Source: Patescibacteria group bacterium (GTDB lineage: Bacteria > Patescibacteriota > Minisyncoccia > Phycocordibacterales > UBA9973). Taken from it: a stretch of DNA of 47,472 nt. A program made the translations under genes and the position numbers. Below are positions 27,037 through 44,869 of this stretch, one piece after another. Positions within the stretch are counted from its first letter, which is position 1, and every line of letters begins with the position of its first letter. The stretch covers positions 1 through 47,472 of the forward strand of contig JBBTYD010000015.1 of NCBI GenBank assembly GCA_038061925.1. The letters run 5' to 3'. The notes beneath the pieces were generated by a model that searched no databases, had not been told where the DNA came from, and saw only the letters and a program-made list of their open reading frames with translations.

Positions 27037-27100
27037 AAGGTTATTCAACAATAATACCTCGGAATGAAATTTTTTGCAAAGTTCCGCACGCAAAACTATA

Positions 27101-28654
27101 TTATAGCATAGGTTCGTCTTCTTGGGAAGCTTTTGTTTTAGGTTCTTTTTTTTCGCTCTCCTTTTCGGCTACTGTTTCGGCAGATAAATCAACAAACTCG
27201 CCTATTTCTTCATTCTTTTCCTTTTTTTCTTTTTCCTTCTCCTTTCTTTTAGCTTTTCTTTCAATTATTGCTTTTTCTTCCACGCTTCTGATTATCGTAG
27301 CCTCTTCCTCGACAATGAGCTTAGCGGCATCATCTTTTGGAATTGAATATTTTCGGCGAGATGCATCAATAATTTCTCGTCTATAAGATGGATGCGTTGG
27401 AGGAAGCACTTTGAGAGTTTCAGCTGAAAATGGATCATAAGATTCGCCATCAATAGTTATTTTTATATAAAATTCTGTCACCGCCAAATTAATCATATCC
27501 TTGATATCAAAGATAGGCGCAAATTCCGGTTTTAATTTTACCGCGTCCTCGCCACCAACCCTAAAACAAATAATGCCTCCCGTATTGCCAAGTATCGCAT
27601 GTTGGACTTGAGGAAGAAGCTGACCGATATATTGGTGCGCCATCGTAAGGTTTAGAGCGTATTTTCTAGCTTCGGATAAAATATTTTCAAATGTTTGGGT
27701 AACAATATTATGAAACTCGTCTATGTACAAATAAAAATCCTTGCGCTCCGCCTCGGGAATATTCGCTCGCTCCATTCCCGCTTGTTTTATTTTTGTCAAA
27801 AACATCGAACCAAAAAAAGATGAATTTTCTTCTCCGATCCGACCTTTTGAAAGATTAATAAAAATTATTTTCTCTTGATTCATTAGTTCGCTGATATCTA
27901 TTTTGTTTTGCTTTTGTCCGAAGATATTTCGCAGTAATGGGTCGGAGAGAAATTGCCCGAGTTTGTTCACAAGCGGAATAATAGCGTCCGTATCAAATTT
28001 CTCCGACCAGTCGGCAAATTCAATAGCGAAGAATCTTTTCACCATGTCGTCCGTAATATATTCCACCACCTTCTGTCGGTAATTTCTGTCGGTTAACATT
28101 GAAATCATTCCGCGCATCGTAGCGTGCGGATAATCAAGGAGCGCCAAACAAGTGAACCGAAACACATGTTCGAGACGAGGCGTCCAGTTGGCCCCGAATT
28201 GTTTATGTAGAACTTCGATTAATCCTTGAGTTAATTGAAATTTAAACAGCGGATCCACATTGGCCAGCGGATTAAAGGAGGCCGGAAAATCAATATCCGC
28301 CGGATCGATGATGCAGACATCCTCAATGCGTTCTTTTGGAATATAATCCAGCATCGCTTCTATCACATCCCCGTGCGGGTCGATCAGACATAAACCGTGA
28401 TTATAGGTTACATCTTGGCGGATAAAAAGTTCAAGTAATTTAGTCTTACCAACACCAGATTTTCCAACTATATAAAGATGTCTTCGGCGATCTACTCGTT
28501 TTATGCCAAAAATAAATTTCTTCTCTTCGAGCGATGCCACATAATTCGTCCGCCCAATAAAAGAAACATCTTCCGGTTTGACCTTGCCGAAAATGGGCAA
28601 TTCTGGCGGTGGCGGTCCATATTTTATTATTTGCACTCGATTCGGCTTCGGCAT
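27101..28654 (-). CDS. DUF87/TraD-VirD4-like (FtsK-HerA superfamily) P-loop ATPase
   Basis: [43 protein letters not shown]; no TM segment. Confidence 0.88.
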
Positions 28655-28696
28655 ATTTGACTATTTTATCATAATTTAAAAGATTATCCTACCTTA

Positions 28697-28717
28697 TGTC
28701 AAAGAGACACTTTGACA
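28697..28717. repeat. 21-bp palindrome, copy 1
   Basis: TGTCAAAGAG-A-CACTTTGACA; near-identical copy at 40644-40664. Confidence 0.85.
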
Positions 28718-28719
28718 TT

Positions 28720-30507
28720 TTAATAAACTTCCTGCTGATAACATTTTTCGCAATACACTATTTCTGGACGCTCAGGAGCATAATTTGTCTCAAATTCCAC
28801 ATCGCATTTCCTTATTCCGTGAAAATGATTTTTGTTTCGCCCGTCGAAGCTTTGCGAAGTCGGGTCACACATACAAGACCTGTGCCAGAGTTTTGGCGGA
28901 TTAACTTTTTTAAATCGTTCTTGATGCCTACACTCAAAACAATTACGTGGTAACGGTAAATTAAATCTTTTTAAAAAAATGTATTCATTTTGGATTATTT
29001 TATAAGGTCTTTTACAAGAACCACATTCAATAATTAAACTTAAAACATTTTCATTAGCACCTTCTATATGGTCAGATAAATCTTCGGACAAACATGTAGT
29101 TTTGTATTCCGACTTTTCCTTCTCAATATAATTATAACCGTTCTTCAAAATTGTTTCTTGGGAAAGTGGAAAATAATCTTGTGATACCGTTTCATTGTAT
29201 CCAAAGGGAGAAATTTCTATTGGAAAATATTCTCCATATCCATATTTATTTCCCCTTTTATCAATATAAAACACTTTGTTCATTTGTTTAATAATCAATT
29301 CTCGAAGCTTTCCAAACTCAACTTTCTCATACTGTTTGTTAAAAATACAATAATTTTTATTGCGAAGACCAACACAACCAAAAATATTATTGCACCCATG
29401 ACAGTTAAAAGAATATTCAGCGTTTAGACACTCCCAGACTGTAAGCACAAATAATTGGCTAGAACCATTCACGCCGGAATCCATACCCTCATATAGCAAT
29501 TCCACAAGACCAAGACCGTAGCCGTCATAACTATCTTTAGTACGAAATGAATTCATCAGGAACTTACAATCTTTTATTTCTTCAAGCACCCCAAAACAAG
29601 CTTTAGAATTGTCTGCATGAAAGATATCATCTCCGGAAACATCTGTTGAATTTATAATATTGGCAAATCTTCTTTTGGCACTCAATTTTAGCTTTTCAAA
29701 TTTTTCTTTTGCTTTTTTAAAGTTTTTAAAACTTCCAATGTCTAATGCTTTTAATTTTTTATTATATTCGTCTTTGGTTAACTGCACATTCCACATACAA
29801 TTAGACTTATTACGAAGTGATATACAGCCAAAACAATTTATACAATTTTTACAGTCATAAAGAAAATATGAGCTAGTGCAAGAATCAGCATTATGTGAGA
29901 AAAATGTTTCATAACATTTTGTGGAGGAAATGTCATCATAACAAAATTCACATTTAGTAGTTATATACATATCCATTGAATCTTTACAAAAATTACAGCG
30001 TGATGCATAAATCACATTTTCTCCTTCCCAAGACGCGGATATAAGGTAGGAATTTCTAAATTCACCAATATAATTACCATAAAAAGTGTTAACACATTTA
30101 CCAATAAAAAGATTTGGATGAGGAACTTTTTCTAGTAATTTTTTAAATTGAGAGAAAAACGATTTTTGAAAATCATACTGAATACCGTAGTCTGTTGGAT
30201 CCCATCCGTCACCCCACCAAATATCTCTTTCGTATATCGTAAAAGGAGATTCTTTGGAAAAACAACTAATTAAACTTTTCCCAGTTTTAGCGCATTTATT
30301 TCTATGAAGTGTACGTTCATTGCGCCAAGCCATACGTCTTTGCATTCGACATTCTGGACAAAACGTCGGTGGTGGCACTTTTATTTTTTCATAAAAATTA
30401 AAATCTTCCGATTCTATGATAAAATCTTTTTTACAGTTTTGGCATATTAAAGATACTGAGCTTTTCGAATGTATTCTTTTTTTATTTTTTTTTCTAATAC
30501 TATTCAT
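28720..30507 (-). CDS. Cys-rich repeat protein, paralog 1 (Zn-ribbon ends, beta-helix-like core)
   Basis: CQNC..F.I...DF.FYEKIKVPPPTFCPECR...CFGC..LR.K...YAPERPEIVYCEKCYQQEVY. Confidence 0.85.
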   Translation of the reverse strand: MNSIRKKNKKRIHSKSSVSLICQNCKKDFIIESEDFNFYEKIKVPPPTFCPECRMQRRMAWRNERTLHRNKCAKTGKSLISCFSKESPFTIYERDIWWGDGWDPTDYGIQYDFQKSFFSQFKKLLEKVPHPNLFIGKCVNTFYGNYIGEFRNSYLISASWEGENVIYASRCNFCKDSMDMYITTKCEFCYDDISSTKCYETFFSHNADSCTSSYFLYDCKNCINCFGCISLRNKSNCMWNVQLTKDEYNKKLKALDIGSFKNFKKAKEKFEKLKLSAKRRFANIINSTDVSGDDIFHADNSKACFGVLEEIKDCKFLMNSFRTKDSYDGYGLGLVELLYEGMDSGVNGSSQLFVLTVWECLNAEYSFNCHGCNNIFGCVGLRNKNYCIFNKQYEKVEFGKLRELIIKQMNKVFYIDKRGNKYGYGEYFPIEISPFGYNETVSQDYFPLSQETILKNGYNYIEKEKSEYKTTCLSEDLSDHIEGANENVLSLIIECGSCKRPYKIIQNEYIFLKRFNLPLPRNCFECRHQERFKKVNPPKLWHRSCMCDPTSQSFDGRNKNHFHGIRKCDVEFETNYAPERPEIVYCEKCYQQEVY

Positions 30508-30514
30508 ATATTTA

Positions 30515-30539
30515 GTATCTATGTACTAGTACATAGTAA
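30515..30539 (-). promoter_or_regulatory. Second copy of the TrpR-like operator
   Basis: GTATCTATGTACTAGTACATAGTAA, identical to 18301-18325, 7 bp upstream of ATG 30507. Confidence 0.7.
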
Positions 30540-30551
30540 TACGTATTGTCC

Positions 30552-32216
30552 TTAATAAACCTCTTGTTGATAACAATGTTCGCAATATACTATTTCCGGC
30601 CGGTCGGGAGCATAACTTGTTTTAATTTCTTTTTGGCATTTTGCGCAATTGCGATTAAAAAATTTATAAGATCCTCGACGAATAATGCGATTTGTAAAAC
30701 GACAATTCCAGCATTTTTGAGGGATAGGAATAAGCATTTTTCTGTAAAATTCAAGCTCCCGCCGAATCAAGCGATAATTTCTAGAACATTCAACACAAGT
30801 TAATATTTCATCAAGAATACTGTCCTCTACATCTTTTATATGATCAGGAATTTTTTCGGGTTTTAGAGTTCCCTTTCCTTCTGTCTTTTGGATACTATCT
30901 TCCCATCTAAAACCTTGTCCTAACGCCTCTTCTTTTATAAGTGGAATATTATCTTGCGCAATTGTTTCATTATATGCAAAAAAAGCAAGATCTATGGGGA
31001 AAAAATCACCGTAAATATCTTTATCTTTTAATTCTTTTATAATATTATCTTTTATCTTGTGGTATTCATCTTTACTATAACGTTTGTTTAAAATAACAAA
31101 ACTTCCACCCTTTATAGCATCACAACCAAAACAATCATTACTTCTGCGAGTAGCAAAAGAATATTCCACATCTTGCGAACTTTCAACCCACCATGAACAA
31201 ATAATGTTTCTTGCTCCAGCTCCAACACCAACACCATTATAAAGAAGTTCTGAACGACGACAATGACCTATCATATCAGCGCAATCTTTTCCACGTTTTA
31301 CTGAAAAAGAATGTCGCATATCTTCGCAAAAAAATACTTCAAAGCATTTATGACAATTTTTTGATTCAAATATATAATCACCCACACAGTTTTCAACTTT
31401 TAAATTATTATTGTTACGATATGGAAATTTAAGAGAAAATTCTAAAAATTTTTTCTTTATCTTTTCTGTTTTCAAGAAACTGCCTGAAATTTCTGAAACA
31501 CGTTTTAGCCATTCTTCTCTCTTGAGCGGTTCATTGAAAAAATGATAAGATTTATGACGTAAATTTACACAACCGAAACAATTCTGACATCCTGAGCAAT
31601 TTAAAATAAAACGAGAATCTATGCAATCAGACACATTTTGTCCCCAAGCTACTCCATTGCTTTTATGAACATTTATACTTTCATAAACATTTTCTATTAC
31701 ATTACCATAATAAACATCATAAATATCTCGACTAGCAATTATGCCACGCGAATATGCGCAATTTTCATTATTGGGACCTGAATTAAAAATTAAATAACTA
31801 TCTTTGTTGCCACCCGCAAAATTTGTATATTCGCTGTTTACATTTGAACCAGTAGCTGCGCTACTAAAGGTAGCGGATTTCGAGACTTTTTTAATAAGTT
31901 CATTAAATTGATCAAAAAAGGAAATTTTTGAGTCATAATCAAGGGCATAAGAATATGGATCCCATTTATCAGAAACCCAACATTCATTGCAGTACACAAC
32001 ATAAAGAGAATTGGGATTATACATGCTGATAATAGAACGACTGCATAAGTTACAAATTCTATTATATAAAGTACGTTCATTTCTCCATATTGCGCGTATT
32101 TTGAAACGGCAATCTGGGCAGATCTTAGGCGACGGCACTTTCATTTTTTCATAAAAAGAAAGATCATTTTTTTCTAAGATAAATTTTTGTTCACACTTTT
32201 TACATTTTTGTTTCAT
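30552..32216 (-). CDS. Cys-rich repeat protein, paralog 2
   Basis: Same terminal motifs (VPSPKICPDCR; YAPDRPEIVYCEHCYQQEVY). Confidence 0.85.
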   Translation of the reverse strand: MKQKCKKCEQKFILEKNDLSFYEKMKVPSPKICPDCRFKIRAIWRNERTLYNRICNLCSRSIISMYNPNSLYVVYCNECWVSDKWDPYSYALDYDSKISFFDQFNELIKKVSKSATFSSAATGSNVNSEYTNFAGGNKDSYLIFNSGPNNENCAYSRGIIASRDIYDVYYGNVIENVYESINVHKSNGVAWGQNVSDCIDSRFILNCSGCQNCFGCVNLRHKSYHFFNEPLKREEWLKRVSEISGSFLKTEKIKKKFLEFSLKFPYRNNNNLKVENCVGDYIFESKNCHKCFEVFFCEDMRHSFSVKRGKDCADMIGHCRRSELLYNGVGVGAGARNIICSWWVESSQDVEYSFATRRSNDCFGCDAIKGGSFVILNKRYSKDEYHKIKDNIIKELKDKDIYGDFFPIDLAFFAYNETIAQDNIPLIKEEALGQGFRWEDSIQKTEGKGTLKPEKIPDHIKDVEDSILDEILTCVECSRNYRLIRRELEFYRKMLIPIPQKCWNCRFTNRIIRRGSYKFFNRNCAKCQKEIKTSYAPDRPEIVYCEHCYQQEVY

Positions 32217-32219
32217 AGT

Positions 32220-34271
32220 TTATTCTAAAATTTTTCGGAGGACGTCTTCCGGCACTTCTTTCATTTTTGGAGCAGGTTTTGCCTCACTGGAGCTTTCAGC
32301 GGAAGTAGGCGGTGGAGTGAGTATGGGAGGAGTGTGAACGGTTTTTTCCTTTTCAATTTTTTCTAAAATCAAATCCTTTAATTTATTCATATCTTCAGAA
32401 CTGGCCGCGCGATCTTTGGAAGGTAGAGATTCTTTATTTTTATTTTTGAGAGTGTCAAGCGAAACTGGTTTTGAAACAGGTGGAGTAAAAAGAGTTTTAT
32501 TTAAAATTTCCCTTAAGGCTGAATTGGGTTTCTTGAGTTTAGCAGGAACTTTATTGAAACCTGCCTGCGCAAACAGGACTTTTTTAATAGTTCCCAATAT
32601 CCCAGACTGGCCAGTTGGAGACAAGATTTTATTCTTGGTAAAAAGAGATTTATCCACGTGATGGCTTACTCGTTCGATATATCTGTCTTTTTCTTCATCT
32701 ATTTTTTTATTTTTTTGTTCAAACTCTATGCCTAAATCAGCTAATGGTTTGAAAAATGTGGATTCATCGTGGCGGATTTGATTTTCTGAATCTTTTTCCA
32801 CTTTTACCTCACCTGATTTTATTCTAGCTATACAATCTTTGCAATAAACTGCCCTACCCGGAGTCGGCTTGAAAGGCACCGTCGTTTCTTTCTTGCAAAG
32901 CGAACAAATAGCTGGAAATTTTTCTATATTTCCACTTCCAGCGTCAGTGTCATTGCCCAGCGACATTCCACTCCAGTCATTAATCTCTCTTTCCACCACT
33001 TCTTTACTTCTGCAATAGAGCGCGCGCGAAGATTTAATTACCTCTTCCTCAATCTTTTTATCACCCGACTTTATTAAGGGTGGTAAAGTTTTAGCCGAAA
33101 AAGGACGAGAGGTCACGCCATCGATCATTAATTTTATATAAACTTTATAGTTAGGCAAATTTAATATATCTTGTGGGGTAAATTCCGGGTCAAATTCACT
33201 TTCCAAAAATTCTGCGTCATCCGCCCCGACTCTGAAAACAATCATCGTGCCTACGTTGCCAAAAACAGCGTCCCGCACCGCTGAACTTTTGTCCACCACA
33301 AGCTGGGCGGTATATTGATGAGCCACAGTCAAATTTAATCGATACTTTCTAGCCTCGGATAAAATACCAGCAAAAGCATCTGTCACGAAATTTTGAAATT
33401 CATCCACATATAGATAGAAATCCTTGCGGGATTCTTCGGGAATTCGCACGCGCTCCATAGCGGCCAGCTGAATTTTAGTAATAATCATTCCACCGAGCAG
33501 TGACGAATTGTCTTCCCCGATACGCCCTTTAGAAACGTTCACCAGAAAAATCTTTCCTTCATTCATCATGTCGAAGATGTTAATCGTACTCTTTGATTGA
33601 CCGACAACATTCCGAATGATAGAAGTGGAAAGAAATTGTCCGACTTTATTTTGAATCGGCGCAATCGCTTCATTTCTGAATTTATCTTGCCAAGCTTCAT
33701 ATTCATGCACCCAGAAAGCTTTAATAACCGGATCTTTTAAATTAGAAATTATTTTCTGCCGATAATCTTTATCCACCAACATTCGAGGAATTCCGAGAAG
33801 CGTCGTGCCGGGAGTATCAAGCAGGGCCAAAATTGTATTATTTAAAATATATTCCATTCGAGCGCTCCAAGCATTTGCCCAAATTTTAGTAAAAATACCC
33901 ATCAGTCCTGAAGCCACTAAATGTTTATAGAGAGGGTCCACGAGCTCCAAAACGTTAAATCCGATGTGATGATCAGCATCAGCCGGATTAAAATAAATTA
34001 CATCTTTTATCCGATGAGGCGGAATAGAGGAGAGAACGGCTTCGACATTTTCTCCGTGGGGATCAACCATACAGACCCCGTCGCCATTTTTAATGTTCTG
34101 AATAATCATATTGAACATCAAAACCGATTTACCAGTACCGGACTTTCCGAGCATATAAACATGCTGACGCCTATCTTTGCGCTTGATGCCAAAAAGCTGA
34201 TTCTTATCCCGATAAGTGGTAATCCCAAGATATGTAATGTCTTTATTAAAAGGTATTTCGGGCGGTTCCAT
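32220..34271 (-). CDS. DUF87/TraD-VirD4-like ATPase with CxxC-x17-CxxC domain
   Basis: GKSGTGKS, VDPHGE, LYVDEFQN, SEARKY; CSLC...VPFKP..GRAVYCKDC; low-complexity tail. Confidence 0.88.
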   Translation of the reverse strand: MEPPEIPFNKDITYLGITTYRDKNQLFGIKRKDRRQHVYMLGKSGTGKSVLMFNMIIQNIKNGDGVCMVDPHGENVEAVLSSIPPHRIKDVIYFNPADADHHIGFNVLELVDPLYKHLVASGLMGIFTKIWANAWSARMEYILNNTILALLDTPGTTLLGIPRMLVDKDYRQKIISNLKDPVIKAFWVHEYEAWQDKFRNEAIAPIQNKVGQFLSTSIIRNVVGQSKSTINIFDMMNEGKIFLVNVSKGRIGEDNSSLLGGMIITKIQLAAMERVRIPEESRKDFYLYVDEFQNFVTDAFAGILSEARKYRLNLTVAHQYTAQLVVDKSSAVRDAVFGNVGTMIVFRVGADDAEFLESEFDPEFTPQDILNLPNYKVYIKLMIDGVTSRPFSAKTLPPLIKSGDKKIEEEVIKSSRALYCRSKEVVEREINDWSGMSLGNDTDAGSGNIEKFPAICSLCKKETTVPFKPTPGRAVYCKDCIARIKSGEVKVEKDSENQIRHDESTFFKPLADLGIEFEQKNKKIDEEKDRYIERVSHHVDKSLFTKNKILSPTGQSGILGTIKKVLFAQAGFNKVPAKLKKPNSALREILNKTLFTPPVSKPVSLDTLKNKNKESLPSKDRAASSEDMNKLKDLILEKIEKEKTVHTPPILTPPPTSAESSSEAKPAPKMKEVPEDVLRKILE

Positions 34272-34304
34272 ACAATGCTATTTTACAATAAAATAACAAA
34301 AACT

Positions 34305-34335
34305 AAAAGCCCCCCTTAATGTGGAAAGGGGCTTT
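34305..34335 (-). terminator. Intrinsic terminator after dnaK
   Basis: AAAGCCCC...GGGGCTTTT hairpin 10 bp after the dnaK stop. Confidence 0.7.
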
Positions 34336-34345
34336 CAGAAAAAAA

Positions 34346-36283
34346 CTATTTCTTTGGCGTCTCGCCTTCGTCCTTTTTGCTTTCCTTGAACTCCGCATCT
34401 TTTATCTCAGGATTTTTCTCTTCGGGGGTCGAAGGTCCTGAGCTTGCCGAAGGATTTGCACCAGCTTTAGCCATTGCCTCTCCTATTTTAGACATTTCGG
34501 CGGATAGTTCTTCGGTCGCTTTTTTGATTGCTTCCGAATTAGTGCCATCTTTTACGCCTCGCAACGCAGTAATCTTAGCATTGACACTATCTTTTAATTC
34601 TTTAGGAATTTTAGCATCGTTGTCTTTTAATGCTTTTTCCGCGGTGTAAATAATCATTTCCGCGGTATTTTTAAAATCAACCACTTCTTTTTTCTTTTTA
34701 TCTTCCTCAGCGTGAAGTTCCGCATCTTTTTGCATTTTTTTAATGTCCTCGTCTTTGAGTCCAGAACTTGCTTCAATTTTAATTGATTGAGTCTTGCCGG
34801 AAGCTTTATCTTTGGCCGCCACATTTAAAATTCCATTAGCGTCAATATCAAAAGAAACTTCAATCTGAGGCATACCTCGAGGAGCTGGTGGAACCCCGTC
34901 CAAGATAAATCGGCCCAAGGATTTATTGTCCGAAGCTATCGGACGCTCTCCTTGCACGATATGTATTTCCACCGAAGTCTGATTATCAGCCGCCGTGGAG
35001 AATACTTGAGATTTGGAGGATGGAATAGTGGTGTTTCTTTCAATCAATTTTGTCGCCACTCCTCCCAATGTCTCGATACCCAAAGACAGCGGTATGACAT
35101 CCAACAAGAGCACATCTCGTACATCTCCTGCGAGCACCCCGGCTTGAACCGCCGCGCCAAGCGCCACCACTTCATCCGGATTAATAGACATATTTGGCTC
35201 TTTGCCAAAAAGATTTCTAACCGCTTCCACAATCTTCGGCATTCTGGTCTGACCGCCAACCATGATGATTTCATTTATTTCATCCATTTTGAAAGGCGAG
35301 GCGGAGAGCGCTCTCTTGGTTATTTCGATAGAACGATCAATTAAATCTTTAGTAAGCGACTCTAAAGTAGCGCGAGATATTTTCATAAGCAAATGCTTGG
35401 GTCCCCCGGCGTCGGAAGTGATAAATGGAATATTTATTTCCGCCTCCAGGGTGGTGGAAAGTTCATGCTTGGCTTTCTCCGCCGCTTCTCGCAATCTCTG
35501 GTGCGCTAGAGGGTCTTTCGTCACATCAATGCCGGATTCTTTTTTATACTCTTCCGCAATCCATCTGACTATTTTTCGGTCAATATCGCCTCCACCCATG
35601 TGACTATCTCCATCAATAGATTTTACTTCTATTACATCACCTCCTATCTCCAGAACAGACACGTCAAAAGTTCCTCCACCGAAGTCATACACCACAATCT
35701 TTTCATTTTTCTTTTTATCAAACCCATAAGCCAGCGCGGCGGCCGTGGGTTCGTTGATGATACGTTTGACGTCTAGTCCAGCAATCGCTCCGGCATCTTT
35801 GGTTGCTTTTCTTTGCGCATCATTAAAATACGCGGGCACGGTGATGACCGCCTCGGTGATTTTCTCCCCTAATTTAGCTTCCACGTCCGCTTTTATTTTT
35901 TGTAAAATCATGGCAGAAATTTCTTCCGGTCGGTAAAATTTATCCATCATTTTAACTTTCGCTCCACCTCCATCGGCGGCTTCAGTTTTAAAAGAGGCAG
36001 TCGCCCGATCTTTTTGTACTTCCGGACTATCATAGCGATGACCCATAAAGCGCTTGATTTCCGCAATTGTATTTTCCGGATTTGTGATTGCTTGTCTCTT
36101 CGCTAAAAGTCCAACAATACGATCTCCATTTTTGGCGGTTGCAACCACTGAAGGCGTCGTACGATTACCTTCGATATTTTCAATAATTTTTGGCGCTCCT
36201 CCTTCAATAACGGCGACGGCCGAATTTGTTGTACCTAAATCTATACCTATTATTTTACTCATAATTTTTCTTTGGCTCGCCAT
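34346..36283 (-). CDS. dnaK: Chaperone DnaK
   Basis: [34 protein letters not shown]; alternative start 36262. Confidence 0.98.
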
Positions 36284-36437
36284 AGTTTTATACTTAAGCG
36301 ACTTATTTCTAAATCCCGATTCGATAATCGGGGTTGATAATTAATTTTTACAATTATATACCTATTTATTATTTTAGCAAGTTTTTCGCGACCACGAAAT
36401 ACTTGTCAAAAACCAGTATATATTATAATATATAATT

Positions 36438-37001
36438 ATGTCAAGAAAAATCCAGAAAATTAAGTATTCTAATAAAATATTAAGCATTTTAGGCCAAAAA
36501 ACAGCTATTTCATTACCCGAAATTACTAATAAGGTAATTCCAGAAGATGGCGACATTCCCGCCTGCGCCAAGGCTACGGCAGGCAAGTATGCTATTACAC
36601 GCTCTCTAAAAGGACTCAGGGAGGCTGGGCTGATAGAACAGATATTATCCCCGCAAAATGAATACGCGCGCTTGACAAAATTGGGACGAAAAAAAATGCA
36701 TAGTTTAAAGTTGGATAGTGACACAACTCTCGTGAATACCTCTTGGGACGGATTTTGGAGAATTATCTTGCTTGATCTTCCGGAAAATAAAAAGAATGAA
36801 CGTGAAAGCTTGCGTTATCTTCTTAAAAAAGCCGGTTTCGTCTGTCTGAAAAATTCCGCTTGGATATCCCCATTTCCTTTTGAACATTTATTTACAAACA
36901 TAAAAAAAGATTTGGGCTTGACAACGGAAATGATGATTATCATCACGCAATTGGTGGATGAAGAAACCAAGAAAATTCTATTCGAGACTTTCGAAAAATA
37001 A
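36438..37001 (+). CDS. PaaX-like regulator (wHTH + Cas2-like domain), divergent from dnaK
   Basis: L...GLI...RLT..G; WDGFWRIILLDLPE..K..R..LR..L...GF..L..S.WISP. Confidence 0.82.
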   Translation: MSRKIQKIKYSNKILSILGQKTAISLPEITNKVIPEDGDIPACAKATAGKYAITRSLKGLREAGLIEQILSPQNEYARLTKLGRKKMHSLKLDSDTTLVNTSWDGFWRIILLDLPENKKNERESLRYLLKKAGFVCLKNSAWISPFPFEHLFTNIKKDLGLTTEMMIIITQLVDEETKKILFETFEK

Positions 37002-37044
37002 AATAATTTACTATTTTTATGCTATAGCATTATTATAGTAAATT

Positions 37045-38796
37045 CTAATACACTTCCTTATTATAACAACTTTCACAGTAAACTTTCTCAGGTCGCTCGG
37101 GCGCATAACTTGTCTTAAATTCAACATTACATTTTTTTGACCCATGAAAATGATTTTGTTTATCGCACATGCAACTTCTTGTCCATAATTTCAAGGCTGG
37201 CATAATTTTAAACCTTTCATAATGACGACAATTTGGACAAAGATTGGGAATAGGAATACTATGCTTTTTATAAAATTTAAGCTCGTAATCAGTTAAGCGA
37301 AAAGCAATATTACATTGATGATCACAATCCCCTTTATGTCCACATCCTAAAACTTCCTTTAAAATTACTTCATTTACATCATCTATATTATCGGGAATAT
37401 TGTCTGAAAATATTGTAATATTAAAATTTTTCACTTCTTTATCGCGCCAAAGATAACCTTGCTTGTTTGCCTCTTTTTTGATAATAGGAAAAAATTCTTG
37501 CGCGATCGTTTCATTATATGCAAAAGGAGAAAGTTCTATCGGAAAAAATTCTCCATATTTATAAACCCGACCATTTTTATCCTCAAAAGAAACATTACTC
37601 ATTTGTTTGATAATTTCTGTTCGTAATCTGTTATATTCCTCTTTTGAATAAATCTTATTAAGAATCGAATTTTCCGTATTTTGAAGTGAAATACAACCAA
37701 AGATGTTTTTACAATTCATACACGATTCTGTGTAATCTGCGTCTCTAATAGAATTTAAGGCTGAATGAGAAAATTTTACATTATAGAGATAAAAGGCTCC
37801 CGTTATATATTCATATATCGATTCTGAATTAGTACCATTGCAAAAATCCATAGAATCTGTAAAATCAAACGCTCTATAACAATATTTAACATCTTCTGCG
37901 TTATAGATCTCAAAACAATTTTCTCCGTTTTTTACATTTAAAAGATTATTACCAGTAACATTCACACATTTATTAATATTAGCAAAGCGAAAAATTGATT
38001 TTTTTTTAATTTCCTCAAACTCACGCAAGATAATCTCACGCGAAGCCATACTTTTTAAATTAAATTTTTGTAATTCTTTTAAATATTCTTCTTTATTATA
38101 TTGCTTATTTTGAATGCAAAACTTTTTGTTACGCAAATTAAAAGAAAGAAAACAATTACTACAATCAACACAATCAACTAAATAATAAGAATCTATGCAA
38201 CTTCTACAAAGTAAAAGATACTGAGAATTATAATTACTTTGTCCTTCAATATTTTCATATAAACTCTCTGAGTTATTTTTTATATTTAAACAATCAATAA
38301 TATCCTTAGATTTATCGACGGATTTTGAATAAAAAACATTTTCTGAATCTTTAACAACTGAAACTGATAAATAAATATTTTTAGATTCGCCAACAAAATT
38401 TGAATAATTTGAATTTAAAGAATTTCTTTGCCAAAGAGCCAATTTGGGAACAATATTAGAAAGCTCTTTATATTGATCAAAAAATGATCTAGACATATCA
38501 TATCTACGACCGAAGGAAAGTGGATCCCAACCATCTCCAAACCAACAATCATGACAATAAACAGGAAAAGGTGCAGATTTGTGATACATCGCAATAATAT
38601 TTTTATTGCAAAGATTACATGTCCGACGATAAAGTGTCCTCTCATTGCGCCATGCTAATCTTCGTTGCAATCTGCATTCCGGACAAAACGTCGGCGGTGG
38701 GACTTTTATTTTTTCATAAAAATTAAAATCGTCCGACTCGATTGTAAAATTGCTTTTACAATTCTGACACACCATATTTTGTGATTTATACTCCAT
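37045..38796 (-). CDS. Cys-rich repeat protein, paralog 3
   Basis: KVPPPTFCPECR...YAPERPEKVYCESCYNKEVY. Confidence 0.85.
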   Translation of the reverse strand: MEYKSQNMVCQNCKSNFTIESDDFNFYEKIKVPPPTFCPECRLQRRLAWRNERTLYRRTCNLCNKNIIAMYHKSAPFPVYCHDCWFGDGWDPLSFGRRYDMSRSFFDQYKELSNIVPKLALWQRNSLNSNYSNFVGESKNIYLSVSVVKDSENVFYSKSVDKSKDIIDCLNIKNNSESLYENIEGQSNYNSQYLLLCRSCIDSYYLVDCVDCSNCFLSFNLRNKKFCIQNKQYNKEEYLKELQKFNLKSMASREIILREFEEIKKKSIFRFANINKCVNVTGNNLLNVKNGENCFEIYNAEDVKYCYRAFDFTDSMDFCNGTNSESIYEYITGAFYLYNVKFSHSALNSIRDADYTESCMNCKNIFGCISLQNTENSILNKIYSKEEYNRLRTEIIKQMSNVSFEDKNGRVYKYGEFFPIELSPFAYNETIAQEFFPIIKKEANKQGYLWRDKEVKNFNITIFSDNIPDNIDDVNEVILKEVLGCGHKGDCDHQCNIAFRLTDYELKFYKKHSIPIPNLCPNCRHYERFKIMPALKLWTRSCMCDKQNHFHGSKKCNVEFKTSYAPERPEKVYCESCYNKEVY

Positions 38797-38869
38797 AACT
38801 TTTTTGCTCGCCCGTCCGTAGCTTTAGCGAAGGAGGGCAATTCTGGCATACTTTAATTTCTGATTTCAT
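38786..38869 (-). pseudogene. N-terminal stub of another Cys-rich paralog, interrupted by a palindromic element
   Basis: ATG 38869 gives MKSEIKVCQNC, then CCTCCTTCGCTAAAGCTACGGACGGGCGA, then GCAAAAAAG; compare MKTETKQCQNCKK. Confidence 0.7.
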
Positions 38870-38873
38870 AATT

Positions 38874-40616
38874 TTAATACACTTCCTGCTGATAACATTT
38901 TTCGCAATAGACTATTTCTGGACGATCGGGTGAATAGGACGTTTCAAATTCATTTAGGCAATTGCCTTGATGAGCATGATTGCTTTGGGAACACATACAA
39001 GATCTAGGCCAAAGATTATTCGGCTGACGTTTGGAGAGTCTTTTGTAATGTCTACAGTTTGGACAAAGCACGGGGAGCGGTAGGTGGTTGAAACGATAAA
39101 ATTGCAATTCGTTCTGAATAATTTTAAATGCGATTGTGCATTGTTGATTACAATCTCCCCCGTGAGCGCAGGCTATTACTTCATTTAAAATATGATCACT
39201 CACTAAATTAATATTCGTTGGTAATTCATTGGCTGACATAGTTGGAATATAATTTTTTGGATCCGGTTCCTTCCAGCGATATCCAGAAGCCAGAGCTTCT
39301 ATTTTGGTTTTTGGGAAATATTCTTGCGCGATAGTTTCATTATAAGCAAATGGGATCATATCAGAAGGAAAAAATTCTCCATAACTAATTGTTCGGCCGA
39401 CATTATCGACAAAAGGCGTATTTTTCATCTGTTCTTTGATTTTCGGAACTAAAACATTATATTCTTCTTTCGTATATTGCTTATTCAGAATACAATATTG
39501 CTTTTTGCGAAACCCCACGCAACCAAATAAATCCGAAGAAGAAAAACAATTTATGCAATATTCAGCCCGAGTCAATTGATCCCAAGATTCATTTGAAAAT
39601 AAAACCGAAGAACACTGCCGACCAACACTGGAAGTTTCATAAATTAATTCACTTCCATTGCCCCAATATGTATAATCCATTATATCTTTGGCTTGCTGAA
39701 CACCAAATAGGTATTTACCATCTTCCACCTTATCACAATTGAAAGAATTATTTACATTTTTTGAGTTTTCAATCCAATTGCCAGAGACATTTACGCAGTG
39801 ACGTTCTACAATGGAAGGAACAACATACTTGATAGATTCTTTTTTTACCACTTCTTCAATCTTTCCTATTTCCGCTCTATTATAAAGTTTTAGTTCAGAA
39901 ATTTTTGCTAAATATTCTTCTCTACTATATTGCTTATTAAAAATACAGTAAGATTTATTTCTTAGATTAGTGCACCCAAAACAATTTTGACAATTGCGAC
40001 AATTATTTAAAAAATAAGAATCAATGCATTCGTTACACTCTTTCGAATACTTTAGGCCGTTGCATTTATAACAATCCATGCATTCATAACATCTTTCACA
40101 TTTACGAGCATTATAACAATCCATGCAATTTTTAGAGTCCCAATACGATACACCATAATAACAATCTTCATTCGCATTGCTGGCAAAAACAAGATAGCAA
40201 TTCTTGGCATCACTCGTCCGGTTTACATACTCGCTATTTATTTGAAAACCCTGCTTGGCAATCCCTAACCTAGGAACACAGTCATAAAGTTTTTTATATT
40301 GCTCAAAGAAAGTTTTAGAAAAATCATAATCCACTCCAAATGTTTGCCCATCCCAATCATCACTATAAAAACAATCATGGCAATAAACTTTATATTTACT
40401 CTCTTTCGGAAAAACCAATATTTTATCTTCCTGGCAAAAATCACATTTTCTTTTATAGAGAGTTCTTTCATTGCGCATCAATAAACGCCTAATCAGCCGG
40501 CACTCCGGACAAAACGTCGGCGGTGGCACTTTTATTTTTTCATAAAAATTAAAATCTTCCGGCTCGATGGTGAAATCTTTTTTGCAATTCTGACACTGTT
40601 TTGTTTCTGTTTTCAT
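38874..40616 (-). CDS. Cys-rich repeat protein, paralog 4
   Basis: MKTETKQCQNC...KVPPPTFCPECR...YSPDRPEIVYCEKCYQQEVY; start ATG 40616. Confidence 0.85.
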   Translation of the reverse strand: MKTETKQCQNCKKDFTIEPEDFNFYEKIKVPPPTFCPECRLIRRLLMRNERTLYKRKCDFCQEDKILVFPKESKYKVYCHDCFYSDDWDGQTFGVDYDFSKTFFEQYKKLYDCVPRLGIAKQGFQINSEYVNRTSDAKNCYLVFASNANEDCYYGVSYWDSKNCMDCYNARKCERCYECMDCYKCNGLKYSKECNECIDSYFLNNCRNCQNCFGCTNLRNKSYCIFNKQYSREEYLAKISELKLYNRAEIGKIEEVVKKESIKYVVPSIVERHCVNVSGNWIENSKNVNNSFNCDKVEDGKYLFGVQQAKDIMDYTYWGNGSELIYETSSVGRQCSSVLFSNESWDQLTRAEYCINCFSSSDLFGCVGFRKKQYCILNKQYTKEEYNVLVPKIKEQMKNTPFVDNVGRTISYGEFFPSDMIPFAYNETIAQEYFPKTKIEALASGYRWKEPDPKNYIPTMSANELPTNINLVSDHILNEVIACAHGGDCNQQCTIAFKIIQNELQFYRFNHLPLPVLCPNCRHYKRLSKRQPNNLWPRSCMCSQSNHAHQGNCLNEFETSYSPDRPEIVYCEKCYQQEVY

Positions 40617-40643
40617 ACTTTTATCTCTCTGTCCATCAAAACC

Positions 40644-40664
40644 TGTCAAAGAGTCTCTTTGACA
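40644..40664. repeat. 21-bp palindrome, copy 2
   Basis: TGTCAAAGAG-T-CTCTTTGACA, with perfect arms. Confidence 0.85.
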
Positions 40665-40671
40665 CTCTAAT

Positions 40672-40704
40672 TTAAGCTATATTTTGCTTGTAACATTCCT
40701 CGCA
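40672..40704 (-). pseudogene. C-terminal stub of a deleted Cys-rich paralog
   Basis: Translates CEECYKQNIA-stop; family C-terminus is CEKCYQQEVY-stop. Confidence 0.55.
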
Positions 40705-40725: not shown

Positions 40726-41379
40726 TTATTTTGCTCCGTTTTTATACTCATATACGTTGACCCTGGCCGGACGCATCACGCGTTCACCTAGCTTGTATCC
40801 TTTTTGAATTATATGGGAGACGGTATGATCAAATTCCTTTTGGTCGGTCGTTACCAACTCTATAGATTGATGAAAATTTGGGTCAAAACTTTCTCCCACC
40901 TCTCCAATAGGCTTGACTCCATATTCTTCAAAAATTGTGTTCATTTGTCCGTAAATATATTCCACTCCCTTCCGCCAATTTTCGTCCACTTTCTCCCAGG
41001 CTTCCTTGTTGGTAAAAGCCATATTGAAACTATCCAGCACCATTAAAAATCGAGTCAAAATCCGCTCACGTGTTGATTCAGAAAACATCGTTTTTCGAAC
41101 ATCTTCTTGTTTTCGATAATTGGCAAATTCCGCCCGTTCTTTTTGCCAGCCAGTCAGATATTCTTCCTTTTCTGCTTTACACGCTTTTAAACTATCTCTA
41201 AATTTCTTTAAAGTCTTTTTTAAATCTTCCTCCCCGTCTTCGTTGAATTCAAATTCAACGACTTCGGAAGTATCTGATTCAGCAGAATCACCTCTTCGAG
41301 CCTGAGCCTCAGAGCCGATGGCCCGAGCAACCTCGAGGGGTTTATTTTCAACATCTTTTTTAATTTCTTCGTCACTCAT
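40726..41379 (-). CDS. grpE: Nucleotide exchange factor GrpE
   Basis: RAEFANYRK, GESFDPNFHQSI, QKGY...RVMRPARV.V. Confidence 0.95.
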   Translation of the reverse strand: MSDEEIKKDVENKPLEVARAIGSEAQARRGDSAESDTSEVVEFEFNEDGEEDLKKTLKKFRDSLKACKAEKEEYLTGWQKERAEFANYRKQEDVRKTMFSESTRERILTRFLMVLDSFNMAFTNKEAWEKVDENWRKGVEYIYGQMNTIFEEYGVKPIGEVGESFDPNFHQSIELVTTDQKEFDHTVSHIIQKGYKLGERVMRPARVNVYEYKNGAK

Positions 41380-41459
41380 ACTAACATTTTAGCACAAAAA
41401 ATCCTCTTTTGCTAATTTATTTCCTTGCAATTTCTAGAATAATAATGTGATGAAAATGT

Positions 41460-43762: not shown

Positions 43763-43791
43763 AATATTTTTTTAAACTTAATAATAAAAAT

Positions 43792-44397: not shown

Positions 44398-44414
44398 AAT
44401 TTTTTATAACTTTT

Positions 44415-44867: not shown

Positions 44868-44869
44868 TT

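What the first reader, a model, noticed from the sequence alone, without database searches (positions are those of the whole stretch)
27101..40704. Array of Cys-rich repeat paralogs and DUF87 ATPases interleaved with grpE-dnaK-dnaJ
Seen: the order is grpE, Cys4, Cys3, PaaX-like (opposite strand), dnaK, ATPase, Cys2, Cys1, ATPase, dnaJ. The four 550-600-aa proteins share Zn-ribbon termini and CFGC..LR.K/YGEFFP/YNET motifs but have divergent Cys/Ser/Asn-rich repeat cores. None has an obvious signal peptide. Cys2 starts 3 bp after the ATPase stop and dnaJ follows the second ATPase closely. Inference: a variable-receptor plus motor-ATPase system, possibly chaperone-dependent, acting in DNA uptake, defence, host interaction or metal/sulfur handling. 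Both families are common but uncharacterised in CPR, so linkage could also be a simple insertion hotspot.
Basis: partly seen in the sequence, partly recalled or inferred. Interest (0 to 1): 0.75.

Follow-up and report, generated by a model that had tools for sequence, protein, structure and literature searches.

The report
Zinc-capped solenoid genes with dedicated motor ATPase
In a tiny groundwater bacterium the heat-shock chaperone genes are interleaved with four copies of an undescribed zinc-finger-capped repeat protein and two ring-motor ATPases, one of which occurs only in genomes that carry that protein family, which points to an unstudied molecular machine.

Summary
On the minus strand the order is grpE, Cys4, Cys3, a PaaX_M-like regulator (opposite strand), dnaK, ATPase-A, Cys2, Cys1, ATPase-B, dnaJ. 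The four Cys proteins are 37-43% identical and the two ATPases 46%.

The linkage is recurrent, not a one-off insertion. In 34 dnaK-centred regions from other genomes of the same genus, the regulator sits beside dnaK in 34, an ATPase follows dnaK in 30, and 27 hold a Cys match.

The two ATPases are different things:
- **ATPase-A** is the near-universal "orphan" VirD4-like ATPase of Patescibacteria (199 of 201 genomes).
- **ATPase-B** belongs to a separate clade. It was found in all 13 Cys-positive genomes and in 0 of 21 tested Cys-negative genomes. It is usually next to Cys genes, including in families where dnaK is elsewhere.

The Cys family is patchy (13 of 201 genomes in the phylum sample) and highly expanded (1-26 matches per genome in this genus). 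It is predicted as a cytoplasmic double beta-solenoid capped by zinc fingers.

The chaperone linkage is genus-specific. Function is untested. My best reading is that a dedicated ring motor works on or with a repertoire of solenoid partners.

Earlier runs of this scan found the same arrangement on other genomes. I found no description in print.

The parts
40726..41379 (-). grpE (217 aa), first gene of the upstream transcription unit grpE-Cys4-Cys3
   Evidence: PF01025 GrpE, 126.2 bits against a cut-off of 25.8. In 18 of the 25 genus loci that hold grpE, a Cys gene follows it directly.
38874..40649 (-). Cys4: zinc-finger-capped double beta-solenoid paralog (591 aa as listed; probable true start at 40616, giving 580 aa)
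   Evidence: ORF. At least 7,990 relatives, best 80% identical, named 'hypothetical' or unnamed except one 'Zn ribbon nucleic-acid-binding protein' and one 'putative phage protein'. AlphaFold model has pLDDT 80.6 and pTM 0.83. The Atlas record starts at residue 12.
37045..38796 (-). Cys3: paralog (583 aa)
   Evidence: 43% identical to Cys1. Its orthologue is about 69-70% identical in L125, and in 3 of the 5 rows of its clade the gene sits last before the regulator.
36438..37001 (+). PaaX_M/Cas2-like small winged-helix protein, divergent from dnaK; candidate local regulator
   Evidence: PF20803 PaaX_M, 70 bits against a cut-off of 24. TIGR02277 PaaX scores only 31 bits against 264.55. It lies beside dnaK in 34 of 34 genus loci by tblastn and in 0 of 11 Cys-negative loci of other families.
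36353..36444 (-). dnaK promoter-like site (TTGACA-18-TATACT, 36444-36415) followed by an inverted repeat at 36379-36404
   Evidence: Promoter scan gives 11 of 12 matches. The repeat block is conserved in the alignment of 35 upstream regions. It is unique in the 596-kb genome at up to 3 mismatches.
34346..36283 (-). dnaK (645 aa)
   Evidence: PF00012, 803.8 bits.
34303..34338 (-). Terminator-like hairpin between dnaK and ATPase-A
   Evidence: 14-pair stem followed by a T-run. This is a consensus match only.
32220..34271 (-). ATPase-A: soluble T4CP/HerA-type P-loop ATPase (683 aa) with a C-terminal CxxC-x17-CxxC finger (residues 451-482) and a low-complexity tail; this genus's copy of the near-universal Patescibacteria 'orphan T4CP'
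   Evidence: PF10412 36.8, PF02534 26.9, PF01935 25.7 and PF23477 46.1 bits; TIGR04272 48.4 bits. Falls in Clade II with 20 Cys-negative genomes, its sisters being same-class genomes.
30552..32216 (-). Cys2: paralog (554 aa), starting 3 bases after the ATPase-A stop
   Evidence: Its orthogroup has 6 rows (support 100), and 4 of them sit directly after ATPase-A.
28720..30507 (-). Cys1: paralog (595 aa), directly upstream of ATPase-B
   Evidence: Its orthologue in L124 is 70-71% identical and occupies the same position.
27101..28654 (-). ATPase-B: soluble T4CP/HerA-type ATPase (517 aa) of the clade that co-occurs with the Cys family
   Evidence: PF02534 35.1 and PF10412 26.8 bits. Clade I has support 99 and holds 15 genus rows plus 12 rows from the 12 other Cys-positive genomes; 0 of 21 Cys-negative rows fall in it. 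The model matches TrwB (E 4e-11, TM 0.62-0.65) and HerA (E 1.9e-11).
25933..27093 (-). dnaJ (386 aa), 7 bases after ATPase-B
   Evidence: DnaJ, DnaJ_CXXCXGXG and DnaJ_C domains. An ATPase directly precedes dnaJ in 13 of the 13 genus loci that reach dnaJ.
25341..25931 (-). Conserved 196-aa membrane protein after dnaJ, no family
   Evidence: No Pfam, NCBIfam, PADLOC or PHROG hit. Highest 19-residue hydropathy mean is 2.44. It is syntenic after dnaJ in several loci.

Best explanation
The region is a composite of three things.

1. **An Hsp70 operon.** grpE, dnaK and dnaJ lie with a divergent PaaX_M-like regulator and a conserved operator-like palindrome.
2. **ATPase-A.** This is the ordinary orphan T4CP-like ATPase that nearly all Patescibacteria carry.
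3. **A specific module.** It consists of ATPase-B plus a variable number of zinc-finger-capped double beta-solenoid proteins (Cys1-4).

Most likely mechanism:
- ATPase-B forms a soluble, ring-shaped NTP-driven motor like TrwB or HerA.
- Its dedicated partners or clients are the solenoid proteins.
- Their strongly conserved zinc-finger ends are the constant handle that the motor, or a shared ligand, recognises.
- The divergent solenoid flanks give each paralog its own specificity.

Placement inside the Hsp70 operon in this genus gives co-expression with chaperones that could help fold or unfold proteins with 31-42 cysteines and several zinc sites. Other lineages keep the module away from dnaK, so this linkage is not obligatory.

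**Shown:** gene order, paralogy, recurrence, clade-level co-occurrence, adjacency, a co-loss, predicted folds, absence of membrane segments.

**Inferred:** physical interaction, ring assembly, the handle/specificity division, any role of Hsp70. Whether the end point is intracellular or export through the separately encoded VirB4-type secretion system is also unresolved.
For: **Co-occurrence**
- The Cys family is found in 13 of 201 genomes of the phylum sample.
- The 11 best non-self hits of ATPase-B in the same sample all lie in Cys-positive genomes.
- In the tree, Clade I (SH-aLRT 99) holds ATPase-B, 14 further genus copies and one copy from each of the 12 other Cys-positive genomes.
- For all 21 tested Cys-negative genomes, the best ATPase-B match falls outside Clade I: 20 in Clade II and one (G185) on its own branch.

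**Adjacency outside the genus**
- A Cys gene lies within the roughly 4-kb windows around the Clade I ATPase in 5 of 12 genomes.
- It lies within 1-3.3 kb in three more, G082, G165 and G142, the last being a 96-codon fragment.
- A-C-C-A-C-C type arrays without dnaK occur in L013, L017, L025, L028 and L056.

**Within the genus**
- G244 (100% complete) has neither a Cys gene nor a B-type ATPase.
- G246 carries a Cys-Cys-ATPase-B block 85 kb from dnaK.

**Strong constraint on the motors (identity to the window's copy)**

| Protein | Median identity |
|---|---|
| ATPase-A motor domain | 87.9% |
| ATPase-B motor domain | 86.2% |
| DnaK | 81.9% |
| DnaJ | 71% |
| GrpE | 70% |

ATPase-A exceeds DnaK in 15 of 15 genome pairs, and ATPase-B in 13 of 15.

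**Folds and location**
- ATPase-B model (pLDDT 79.9) matches TrwB, HerA, DotL and Cag-beta.
- Cys4 model (pLDDT 80.6, pTM 0.83) has a core resembling beta-solenoids only weakly, with best Z 5.2.
- Neither family has a membrane segment.

**Paralog pattern**
- Ends are conserved and cores variable.
- The paralogs form at least 10 deep orthogroups that different genomes retain differently, with partial positional conservation: 38 label changes against a shuffled mean of 48.7, reached by 0 of 200 shuffles.

**Published context**
- 5,713 VirD4-like T4CP homologues were reported in 2,918 Patescibacteria genomes, only 148 of them near virB4. [quoted passage not shown]
Against: - G218 (99% complete) keeps ATPase-B (86% identical) and ATPase-A. 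Its only Cys match is a 34-residue relic with two stop codons, so the motor can persist without an intact Cys gene.
- In G024 the Clade I ATPase lies about 220 kb from the single Cys gene.
- No Cys gene was seen in the windows around the Clade I ATPase of G020, G048, G147, G024, G142, G082 or G165. For the last three, wider coordinates show one nearby. In G020, G048 and G147 only 6 of 8, 11 and 11 Cys candidates were scored.
- The trees are quick searches with SH-aLRT support only and a midpoint root. Only 21 of 188 Cys-negative genomes were put in the ATPase tree. Relatives are not independent samples.
- A terminator-like hairpin lies between dnaK and ATPase-A, so co-transcription with dnaK is not assured.
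- No expression data exist for this DNA.
- No enzymatic or known binding domain was found in the Cys proteins.
Confidence: 0.45

Rival explanations
1. Export model. The solenoid proteins are cargo of the VirB4-type secretion system. ATPase-B would be their dedicated coupling protein and recognise the conserved ends. Hsp70 would hold them unfolded and metal-free. Once outside, they would act as surface or host-contact proteins of an epibiotic cell.
For: - ATPase-B has a T4CP-like fold and T4CP Pfam domains.
- The genome encodes a VirB4-like ATPase above the curated cut-off: NF045971, 362 bits against 325, at C5:43372-45006.
- Copy number varies widely (1-26 matches per genome) and phyletic spread is patchy, as expected for host-interaction repertoires.
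- Beta-solenoids are common in adhesins and tailspikes; the weak structural matches are.
- The genes sit in the Hsp70 operon in this genus.
Against: - The ATPases have no membrane anchor, and no channel gene lies in the module.
- VirB4 is on another contig.
- The published survey found that T4CP homologues are rarely near virB4. It also cites work in which the t4cp gene was not essential in Ca. S. epibionticum ML1 while other secretion genes were (PMC12102498, passages read).
- Four zinc-finger modules per chain are typical of intracellular proteins (established knowledge, not tested here).
- The Hsp70 linkage is absent in other Cys-positive families.
Confidence: 0.18
2. No functional coupling. 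The Cys genes, the ATPases and the chaperone genes are neighbours only through shared descent or block transfer, and each works on its own.
For: - G218 keeps ATPase-B without an intact Cys gene.
- In G024 the two genes are far apart.
- Many Cys arrays have no ATPase within 10 kb: only 19 of 80 Cys-centred loci hold an ATPase match, although many of these contigs are short.
Against: - The Clade I ATPase and the Cys family co-occur in all 13 Cys-positive genomes, spread over about 10 families. All 21 tested Cys-negative genomes lack the clade.
- G244 has lost both, and G246 has moved them together.
- Stop-to-start spacings are 3 and 7 bases.
Confidence: 0.15
3. HerA-type defence or DNA-processing complex. 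The solenoid proteins would assemble on the ATPase ring, as Sir2, DUF4297 or NurA do on HerA, and the zinc fingers would bind nucleic acid.
For: - The ATPase-B model matches HerA (4d2i, E 1.9e-11) and Sir2-HerA complexes.
- PADLOC gives weak hits to mad8 (1.9e-14 and 2.2e-10) and to HerA.
- Paralog variability and patchy spread fit a defence role.
Against: - No nuclease, NADase or other effector domain was found in any Cys protein.
- The ATPases are more conserved than DnaK, and the module sits in a housekeeping operon throughout a genus. That is unlike defence islands.
- TM-scores favour TrwB (0.62-0.65) over HerA (0.53).
Confidence: 0.1
4. Mobile or phage-derived cassette that spreads horizontally and happened to land in the dnaK operon.
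For: - Distribution is patchy: 13 of 201 genomes in the phylum sample, and none of 16 other families of the same order.
- The ATPases hit phrog_5156 strongly (1.6e-63), and Cys4 hits phrog_15341 weakly (4.2e-7).
- One homologue is named 'putative phage protein' by its source.
Against: - The Cys family gave one marginal fragment in IMG/VR and no match in 50,697 phage genomes.
- No integrase or transposase lies in the locus.
- Gene positions are stable across the genus.
- The paralogs are old, 37-47% identical.
Confidence: 0.05

Closest known systems
Type IV coupling proteins (TrwB of R388, VirD4, DotL, Cag-beta)
   Same: - P-loop motor domain with an inserted helical domain.
- Pfam T4SS-DNA_transf, TrwB_AAD_bind and TraG-D_C hits above their cut-offs.
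- The ATPase-B model aligns to TrwB over about 415 columns with TM 0.62-0.65.
- Coupling proteins are known to recognise families of substrates through conserved terminal domains (established knowledge, recalled, not tested here).
   Different: - No N-terminal membrane anchor.
- Not linked to a relaxase or to virB4.
- All NCBIfam coupling-protein equivalogs score far below their cut-offs, for example NF045973 at 51.2 against 250.
- Sequence match to TrwB is confined to the Walker A region, E 4e-4.
- ATPase-A carries a C-terminal CxxC-x17-CxxC finger.
Orphan VirD4-like T4CP homologues of Patescibacteria (PMC12102498)
   Same: - ATPase-A and the 922-aa copy on contig C5 fit the published picture of about two T4CP homologues per genome, away from virB4.
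   Different: - The passages I read do not mention a third clade tied to a zinc-finger solenoid family, nor placement in the Hsp70 operon.
- I did not read the paper's supplements.
HerA hexameric translocases with ring-bound partners (HerA-NurA, Sir2-HerA)
   Same: - Fold match with E 1.9e-11.
- DUF87 hits at 25.7 and 23.5 bits against a cut-off of 23.2.
- The partner gene is adjacent to the ATPase gene.
   Different: - The partner here has no catalytic domain.
- TM-score is lower than for TrwB.
- No NurA or Sir2 gene lies in the locus.
Treble-clef zinc fingers zf_Tbcl (PF13451) and zf_Tbcl_2 (PF23477) / TIGR04272 CxxC-x17-CxxC
   Same: - The end modules of the Cys proteins resemble these fingers, and ATPase-A has a clear one.
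- Small CxxC-x17-CxxC proteins of Methanosarcina mazei bind zinc by ICP-MS (PMC12704099, passages read).
   Different: - The Cys proteins score below the curated cut-offs: 16.8-21.6 bits against 24, and 20.5 against 27.
- The known domain families are short single fingers, not caps on a 350-residue solenoid.
Narrow beta-solenoids (ice-binding and antifreeze proteins, left-handed beta-helix acyltransferases, trimeric autotransporter heads)
   Same: - The second repeat block of Cys4 (residues about 280-400) aligns to these with Z 3.9-5.2 and rmsd 2.2-4.0 over 93-117 residues.
   Different: - Scores are in the range of a common arrangement only.
- There is no Foldseek match with E up to 0.001.
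- No sequence similarity was found.

Membership tests
Type IV coupling protein (VirD4/TrwB/TraD) | P-loop NTPase domain with Walker A and B motifs of the FtsK/HerA/T4CP type | tested here: met
   GKSGVGKT / GKSGTGKS and a hydrophobic-DEF motif are visible in the sequences. PF02534 scores 35.1 and 26.9 bits against a cut-off of 20.1.
Type IV coupling protein (VirD4/TrwB/TraD) | All-alpha domain inserted in the motor domain; overall TrwB-like fold | tested here: met
   PF10412 TrwB_AAD_bind scores 36.8 and 26.8 bits against 20.5. The model is helical over residues 135-260. Foldseek to TrwB gives E 4e-11 and TM 0.62-0.65.
Type IV coupling protein (VirD4/TrwB/TraD) | N-terminal transmembrane anchor | tested here: not met
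   The highest 19-residue hydropathy mean is 1.13 (ATPase-A) and 1.00 (ATPase-B), and neither peak is at the N-terminus.
Type IV coupling protein (VirD4/TrwB/TraD) | Genetic association with a relaxase or a VirB4 secretion locus | tested here: not met
   Neither gene is in the window. The only VirB4-like gene is on contig C5 at 43372-45006. No relaxase search was run.
Type IV coupling protein (VirD4/TrwB/TraD) | Score above the curated NCBIfam equivalog cut-offs | tested here: not met
   NF045973 scores 51.2 against 250, TIGR03743 45.4 against 366, and TIGR03754 33.7 against 647.55.
HerA helicase family (DUF87) | HerA central domain and fold | tested here: inconclusive
   PF01935 scores 25.7 and 23.5 bits against a cut-off of 23.2. 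Foldseek to 4d2i gives E 1.9e-11 with TM 0.53, lower than for TrwB. The HAS-barrel and a NurA partner were not examined.
zf_Tbcl / zf_Tbcl_2 (CxxC-x17-CxxC) zinc fingers | Match above the Pfam/NCBIfam cut-off | tested here: inconclusive
   ATPase-A meets it: PF23477 at 46.1 bits against 27, and TIGR04272 at 48.4 against 36. The Cys proteins fall below: PF13451 at 16.8-21.6 against 24, and PF23477 at 20.5 against 27. The CxxC pairs are invariant in the alignments.
zf_Tbcl / zf_Tbcl_2 (CxxC-x17-CxxC) zinc fingers | Zinc binding | not testable with these tools
   Shown only for small M. mazei proteins carrying the motif (PMC12704099, passages read).
PaaX transcriptional repressor | Full-length PaaX equivalog | tested here: not met
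   TIGR02277 scores 31 bits against 264.55. Only the central Cas2-like domain PF20803 is present, at 70 bits against 24.
Hsp70 chaperone system (DnaK-DnaJ-GrpE) | Complete domain sets of the three proteins | tested here: met
   HSP70 scores 803.8 bits. DnaJ, DnaJ_CXXCXGXG and DnaJ_C are all present. GrpE scores 126.2 bits.
Known anti-phage defence systems (PADLOC) | Match of the Cys proteins or a complete system | tested here: inconclusive
   The Cys proteins have no hit. The ATPases give weak mad8 and HerA hits only.

The most novel reading that the evidence does not exclude
The zinc-capped solenoids are a species-specific repertoire of proteins handed by a dedicated coupling ATPase (ATPase-B) to the Patescibacteria secretion machinery. 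Hsp70 would act as the unfolding or holding chaperone, and the proteins would be displayed on or injected into host cells. This would give the first function for the orphan T4CP ATPases of the candidate phyla radiation and identify their host-contact proteins.
Probability: 0.15. Interest if true: 0.85.

Novelty: new variant of a known kind. Interest (0 to 1): 0.6.

Why it matters
Patescibacteria make up a large share of bacterial diversity, have tiny genomes, and mostly live attached to other cells. Nearly all carry VirD4-like ATPases whose role is an acknowledged open question (PMC12102498).

- **A partner family for one clade.** One clade of these motors is tied to a specific, very large and undescribed protein family. 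That family can fill several per cent of a 0.6-0.8 Mb genome: 26 matches in G212.
- **Strong constraint.** The motor domains are more conserved than DnaK.
- **A testable handle.** Two defined partners can now be expressed together, which makes the open question directly testable.
- **A second lead.** The locus also suggests a non-HrcA control circuit for Hsp70 in this genus.

Tried and rejected
**Interaction and expression**
- Complex prediction of ATPase-B (residues 25-445) with Cys1 (18-595), both given as alignments, returned no verdict with score 0.00. This is not evidence either way.
- No RNA holder is listed for the DNA. Only groundwater metagenome DNA runs hold it.

**Fold and family searches for the Cys proteins**
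- Foldseek of the Cys4 model against PDB found no match with E up to 0.001.
- VIA-align against about 48,000 chains gave only generic beta-solenoid matches with Z up to 5.2. The zinc-finger ends were barely tested by that search.
- The protein Atlas returned only unnamed Minisyncoccota clusters.
- NCBIfam and PADLOC gave nothing for the Cys proteins.

**Phage origin**
- One marginal fragment in IMG/VR and none in 50,697 phage genomes.

**Heat-shock control elements**
- A CIRCE-like repeat upstream of grpE (41389-41415) matched the pattern in only 1 of 26 genus loci, so I treat it as chance.
- The HrcA family PF01628 was not found in the genome, which is 94% complete.

**Other family and literature searches**
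- VirB4 N-terminal domain PF03135: no match. The monoderm-type model NF045971 did match.
- Literature searches on these terms found no description of the Cys family or of the arrangement: Parcubacteria/DUF87/dnaK; Patescibacteria/VirD4/coupling protein; zf_Tbcl/PF13451/PF23477/TIGR04272/CxxC-x17-CxxC; Patescibacteria/cysteine-rich/beta-helix/zinc ribbon/paralogs. These cover only the held library.

**Explanations rejected**
- Metal or sulfur handling. Most core cysteines are replaced by Ser, Asn or Val in paralogs, so they are not conserved ligands.
- A hypervariable receptor. The paralogs are old orthogroups, not recent diversification.

Full report
**What is there.** The positions are:

| Gene | Coordinates | Strand |
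|---|---|---|
| grpE | 40726-41379 | - |
| Cys4 | 38874-40649 | - |
| Cys3 | 37045-38796 | - |
| PaaX_M-like protein (187 aa) | 36438-37001 | + |
| dnaK | 34346-36283 | - |
| ATPase-A | 32220-34271 | - |
| Cys2 | 30552-32216 | - |
| Cys1 | 28720-30507 | - |
| ATPase-B | 27101-28654 | - |
| dnaJ | 25933-27093 | - |

- Cys2 starts 3 bases after ATPase-A, and dnaJ starts 7 bases after ATPase-B.
- The four Cys proteins are 37-43% identical to Cys1 and share invariant CxxC pairs and the quoted motifs.
- The ATPases are 46% identical over 444 residues.
- Neither family has a hydrophobic segment.
- The genome (596 kb, 27 contigs, 94% complete) has a fifth Cys gene and a third, 922-aa T4CP-like gene on contig C5. 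These lie 24 kb apart, the latter among housekeeping genes.

**The Cys family.**
- Cys4 has at least 7,990 relatives in the 5.8-billion-protein set. The best relative is 80% identical. Relatives are named 'hypothetical' or unnamed, apart from one 'Zn ribbon nucleic-acid-binding protein' and one 'putative phage protein', and come from Paceibacterota/Parcubacteria.
- Its core alone (residues 100-460) finds 2,921 cluster representatives at E up to 0.001 and 1,035 at up to 1e-30.
- Only weak sub-threshold hits to zf_Tbcl at the N-terminus and zf_Tbcl_2 at the C-terminus are seen.
- The AlphaFold model from 48 sequences is confident overall (pLDDT 80.6, pTM 0.83). The ends score about 90 and the core 58-72.
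- Foldseek finds nothing at E up to 0.001.
- An all-against-all structural search gives only generic beta-solenoids: an ice-binding protein at Z 5.2, antifreeze proteins, left-handed beta-helix acyltransferases and autotransporter heads.
- Core cysteines are often replaced by Ser, Asn or Val in paralogs. They look like interior ladder positions rather than ligands.
- Small proteins with the CxxC-x17-CxxC motif do bind zinc experimentally in Methanosarcina mazei (PMC12704099, passages read).

**Spread of the Cys family.**
- In a phylum-wide sample, 13 of 201 genomes (window genome included) have the family. None of the 9 same-class or same-order genomes in that sample do.
- Among close relatives, 24 of 24 genomes of the same genus have it, with 1 to 26 matches per 0.4-0.8 Mb genome.
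- None of 16 other families of the same order have it.
- It is essentially absent from viral collections.

**Recurrence of the arrangement.**
- Of 80 Cys-centred loci from public genomes, 19 hold an ATPase match and 9 hold dnaK. Several reproduce the full order (L037, L043, L088). Many others are pure tandem Cys arrays of up to five copies. Many contigs are short.
- Sampling by dnaK instead, I took 34 regions of up to 20 kb from other genomes of the genus, many cut by contig ends. The counts are:

| Feature | Count |
|---|---|
| Regulator divergent beside dnaK (tblastn) | 34 of 34 |
| Regulator divergent beside dnaK (ORF criterion, at least 150 aa) | 33 of 34 |
| An ATPase downstream of dnaK | 30 of 34 |
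| Two ATPases downstream of dnaK | 16 of 34 |
| At least one Cys match | 27 of 34 |
| At least one full-length Cys gene | 26 of 34 |
| Full-length Cys genes per locus | 0 to 7 |
| An ATPase directly before dnaJ, among loci that reach dnaJ | 13 of 13 |

- Eleven Cys-negative genomes, including the same order and class, have plain grpE-dnaK(-dnaJ). None has a Cys gene or an adjacent regulator. One has an ATPase 8 kb away.
- Nine Cys-positive genomes of other families have no ATPase within 10 kb of dnaK, and 3 have a Cys gene there. With six or more copies per genome, that is not clearly above chance.
- The chaperone linkage is therefore a trait of this genus.

**Two kinds of ATPase.**
- ATPase-B as a query hits 199 of 201 genomes, usually twice. 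This agrees with the published count of 5,713 VirD4-like T4CP homologues in 2,918 Patescibacteria genomes, only 148 of them near virB4 (PMC12102498, passages read).
- The 11 best non-self hits are all in Cys-positive genomes.
- I built a tree of 70 motor domains:
  - Clade I (support 99) holds ATPase-B and 14 further genus copies in the same position, plus one copy from each of the 12 other Cys-positive genomes.
  - Clade II (support 97) holds ATPase-A and its genus orthologues, the best hit of 20 of the 21 tested Cys-negative genomes, and 6 second copies from Cys-positive genomes.
  - ATPase-A's nearest sisters are Cys-negative genomes of the same class.
  - The 922-aa copy and one 895-aa copy (the best hit of G185, Cys-negative) fall outside both clades.
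- ATPase-A is thus the ordinary orphan gene, and ATPase-B a paralog confined to Cys-positive genomes.
- Outside the genus, a Cys gene lies in the roughly 4-kb window around the Clade I gene in 5 of 12 genomes. It lies within 1-3.3 kb in three more.
- Within the genus:
  - G244 (100% complete) has neither a Cys gene nor a B-type ATPase.
  - G246 has a Cys-Cys-ATPase-B block 85 kb from dnaK.
  - G218 (99% complete) keeps ATPase-B with only a 34-residue Cys relic.

**Constraint.** Measured as identity to the window's proteins:

| Protein | Median identity | n |
|---|---|---|
| ATPase-A motor domain | 87.9% | 29 |
| ATPase-B motor domain | 86.2% | 15 |
| DnaK | 81.9% | 34 |
| DnaJ | 71% | 7 |
| GrpE | 70% | 25 |
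| PaaX_M-like regulator | 57% | 32 |

- ATPase-A exceeds DnaK in 15 of 15 genomes, and ATPase-B in 13 of 15.
- The best counterpart of each window Cys protein at these loci is usually 35-50% identical. Only a few orthologues reach 54-70%.
- The tree of 74 Cys copies shows at least 10 deep orthogroups that different genomes retain differently. Gene position is partly conserved: 38 label changes against a shuffled mean of 48.7, with 0 of 200 shuffles as low.

**ATPase fold.**
- The ATPase-B model (pLDDT 79.9) matches these structures:

| Structure | E-value | TM-score |
|---|---|---|
| HerA (4d2i) | 1.9e-11 | 0.53 |
| TrwB (1e9s) | about 4e-11 | 0.62-0.65 |
| DotL | 3.4e-10 | 0.54 |
| Cag-beta | 3.6e-10 | 0.54 |

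- By sequence, only the Walker A region matches TrwB, at E 4e-4.
- There is no membrane anchor.
- A VirB4-like gene exists on another contig.

**Interpretation.**
- The evidence supports a functional module of ATPase-B plus the solenoid proteins.
- In this genus the module is nested, together with the universal ATPase-A, in the Hsp70 operon.
- I read the conserved zinc-finger ends as the constant part recognised by the motor or a common ligand, and the variable solenoid surfaces as specificity elements.
- Interaction, ring assembly, and the end use (intracellular or export) are inferences.
- The exceptions weaken a strict dependence: G218, G024, and the windows without a Cys gene. The trees are quick searches on a limited sample.

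**Regulation, seen on the way.**
- The dnaK upstream region has a strong promoter-like site, TTGACA-18-TATACT, followed by an inverted repeat at 36379-36404.
- The repeat block is conserved in 35 aligned upstream regions.
- It is unique in the genome.
- No HrcA was found.
- The divergent PaaX_M-like protein is the obvious candidate repressor.
- A hairpin with a T-run separates dnaK from ATPase-A.

**Novelty.**
- Earlier runs of this scan reported the same family and arrangement on other genomes. My tests agree with them.
- New here are:
  - the split of the ATPases into a universal clade and a Cys-linked clade;
  - the co-loss and relocation cases;
  - the conservation ranking against DnaK;
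  - the phyletic counts.
- My four literature searches found no description of the family or the arrangement in the held library.

Noticed in passing
window 36353-36444: A promoter-like site (TTGACA-18-TATACT) for dnaK is followed by an inverted repeat at 36379-36404. The repeat is conserved across the genus and unique in the genome. No HrcA was found in the genome, so the divergent PaaX_M-like protein may be the Hsp70 repressor here.
   Followed up: partly
window 41389-41415: A CIRCE-like inverted repeat (TTAGCA...N...TGCTAA) overlaps a promoter-like site upstream of grpE. The pattern occurs in only 1 of 26 genus loci, so it is probably chance.
   Followed up: yes
window 34303-34338: A terminator-like hairpin (14-pair stem, T-run) lies between dnaK and ATPase-A. 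It could attenuate read-through into the ATPase/Cys genes.
   Followed up: no
window 25341-25931: A 196-aa hydrophobic protein with no family follows dnaJ. It is syntenic there in several related genomes.
   Followed up: partly
window 21859-22344 (minus strand): A second small ORF (161 aa) matched the PaaX_M-like protein in the local blastp classification.
   Followed up: no
window 40616-40649: The listed TTG start of Cys4 is probably too early. Homologues are mostly 570-582 aa, and the Atlas record begins at the 12th codon (Met).
   Followed up: partly
G000 contig C5, L182:915-3683 and L182:4514-5182: A third T4CP-like gene (922 aa, with about 500 extra N-terminal residues) sits between a methionine aminopeptidase gene and ndk. 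A 222-aa ORF with a weak IS200-like Y1 transposase hit lies beside them.
   Followed up: partly
G218:C2:72340-72441: A 34-residue remnant of a Cys-family zinc finger with two stop codons lies just upstream of the regulator/dnaK in a genome that otherwise lacks the family. It looks like a relic of gene loss.
   Followed up: partly
relatives listed (for example G221:C1:18246-19997): Several Cys-family matches in related genomes carry single in-frame stop codons (TAG, TAA or TGA). They may be pseudogenes or assembly errors.
   Followed up: no
window 27101-28654 and 32220-34271: Both ATPases hit the phage protein family phrog_5156 (unknown function, 824 positions) at 1.9e-50 and 1.6e-63. This suggests long-form relatives in phage or prophage records.
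   Followed up: no
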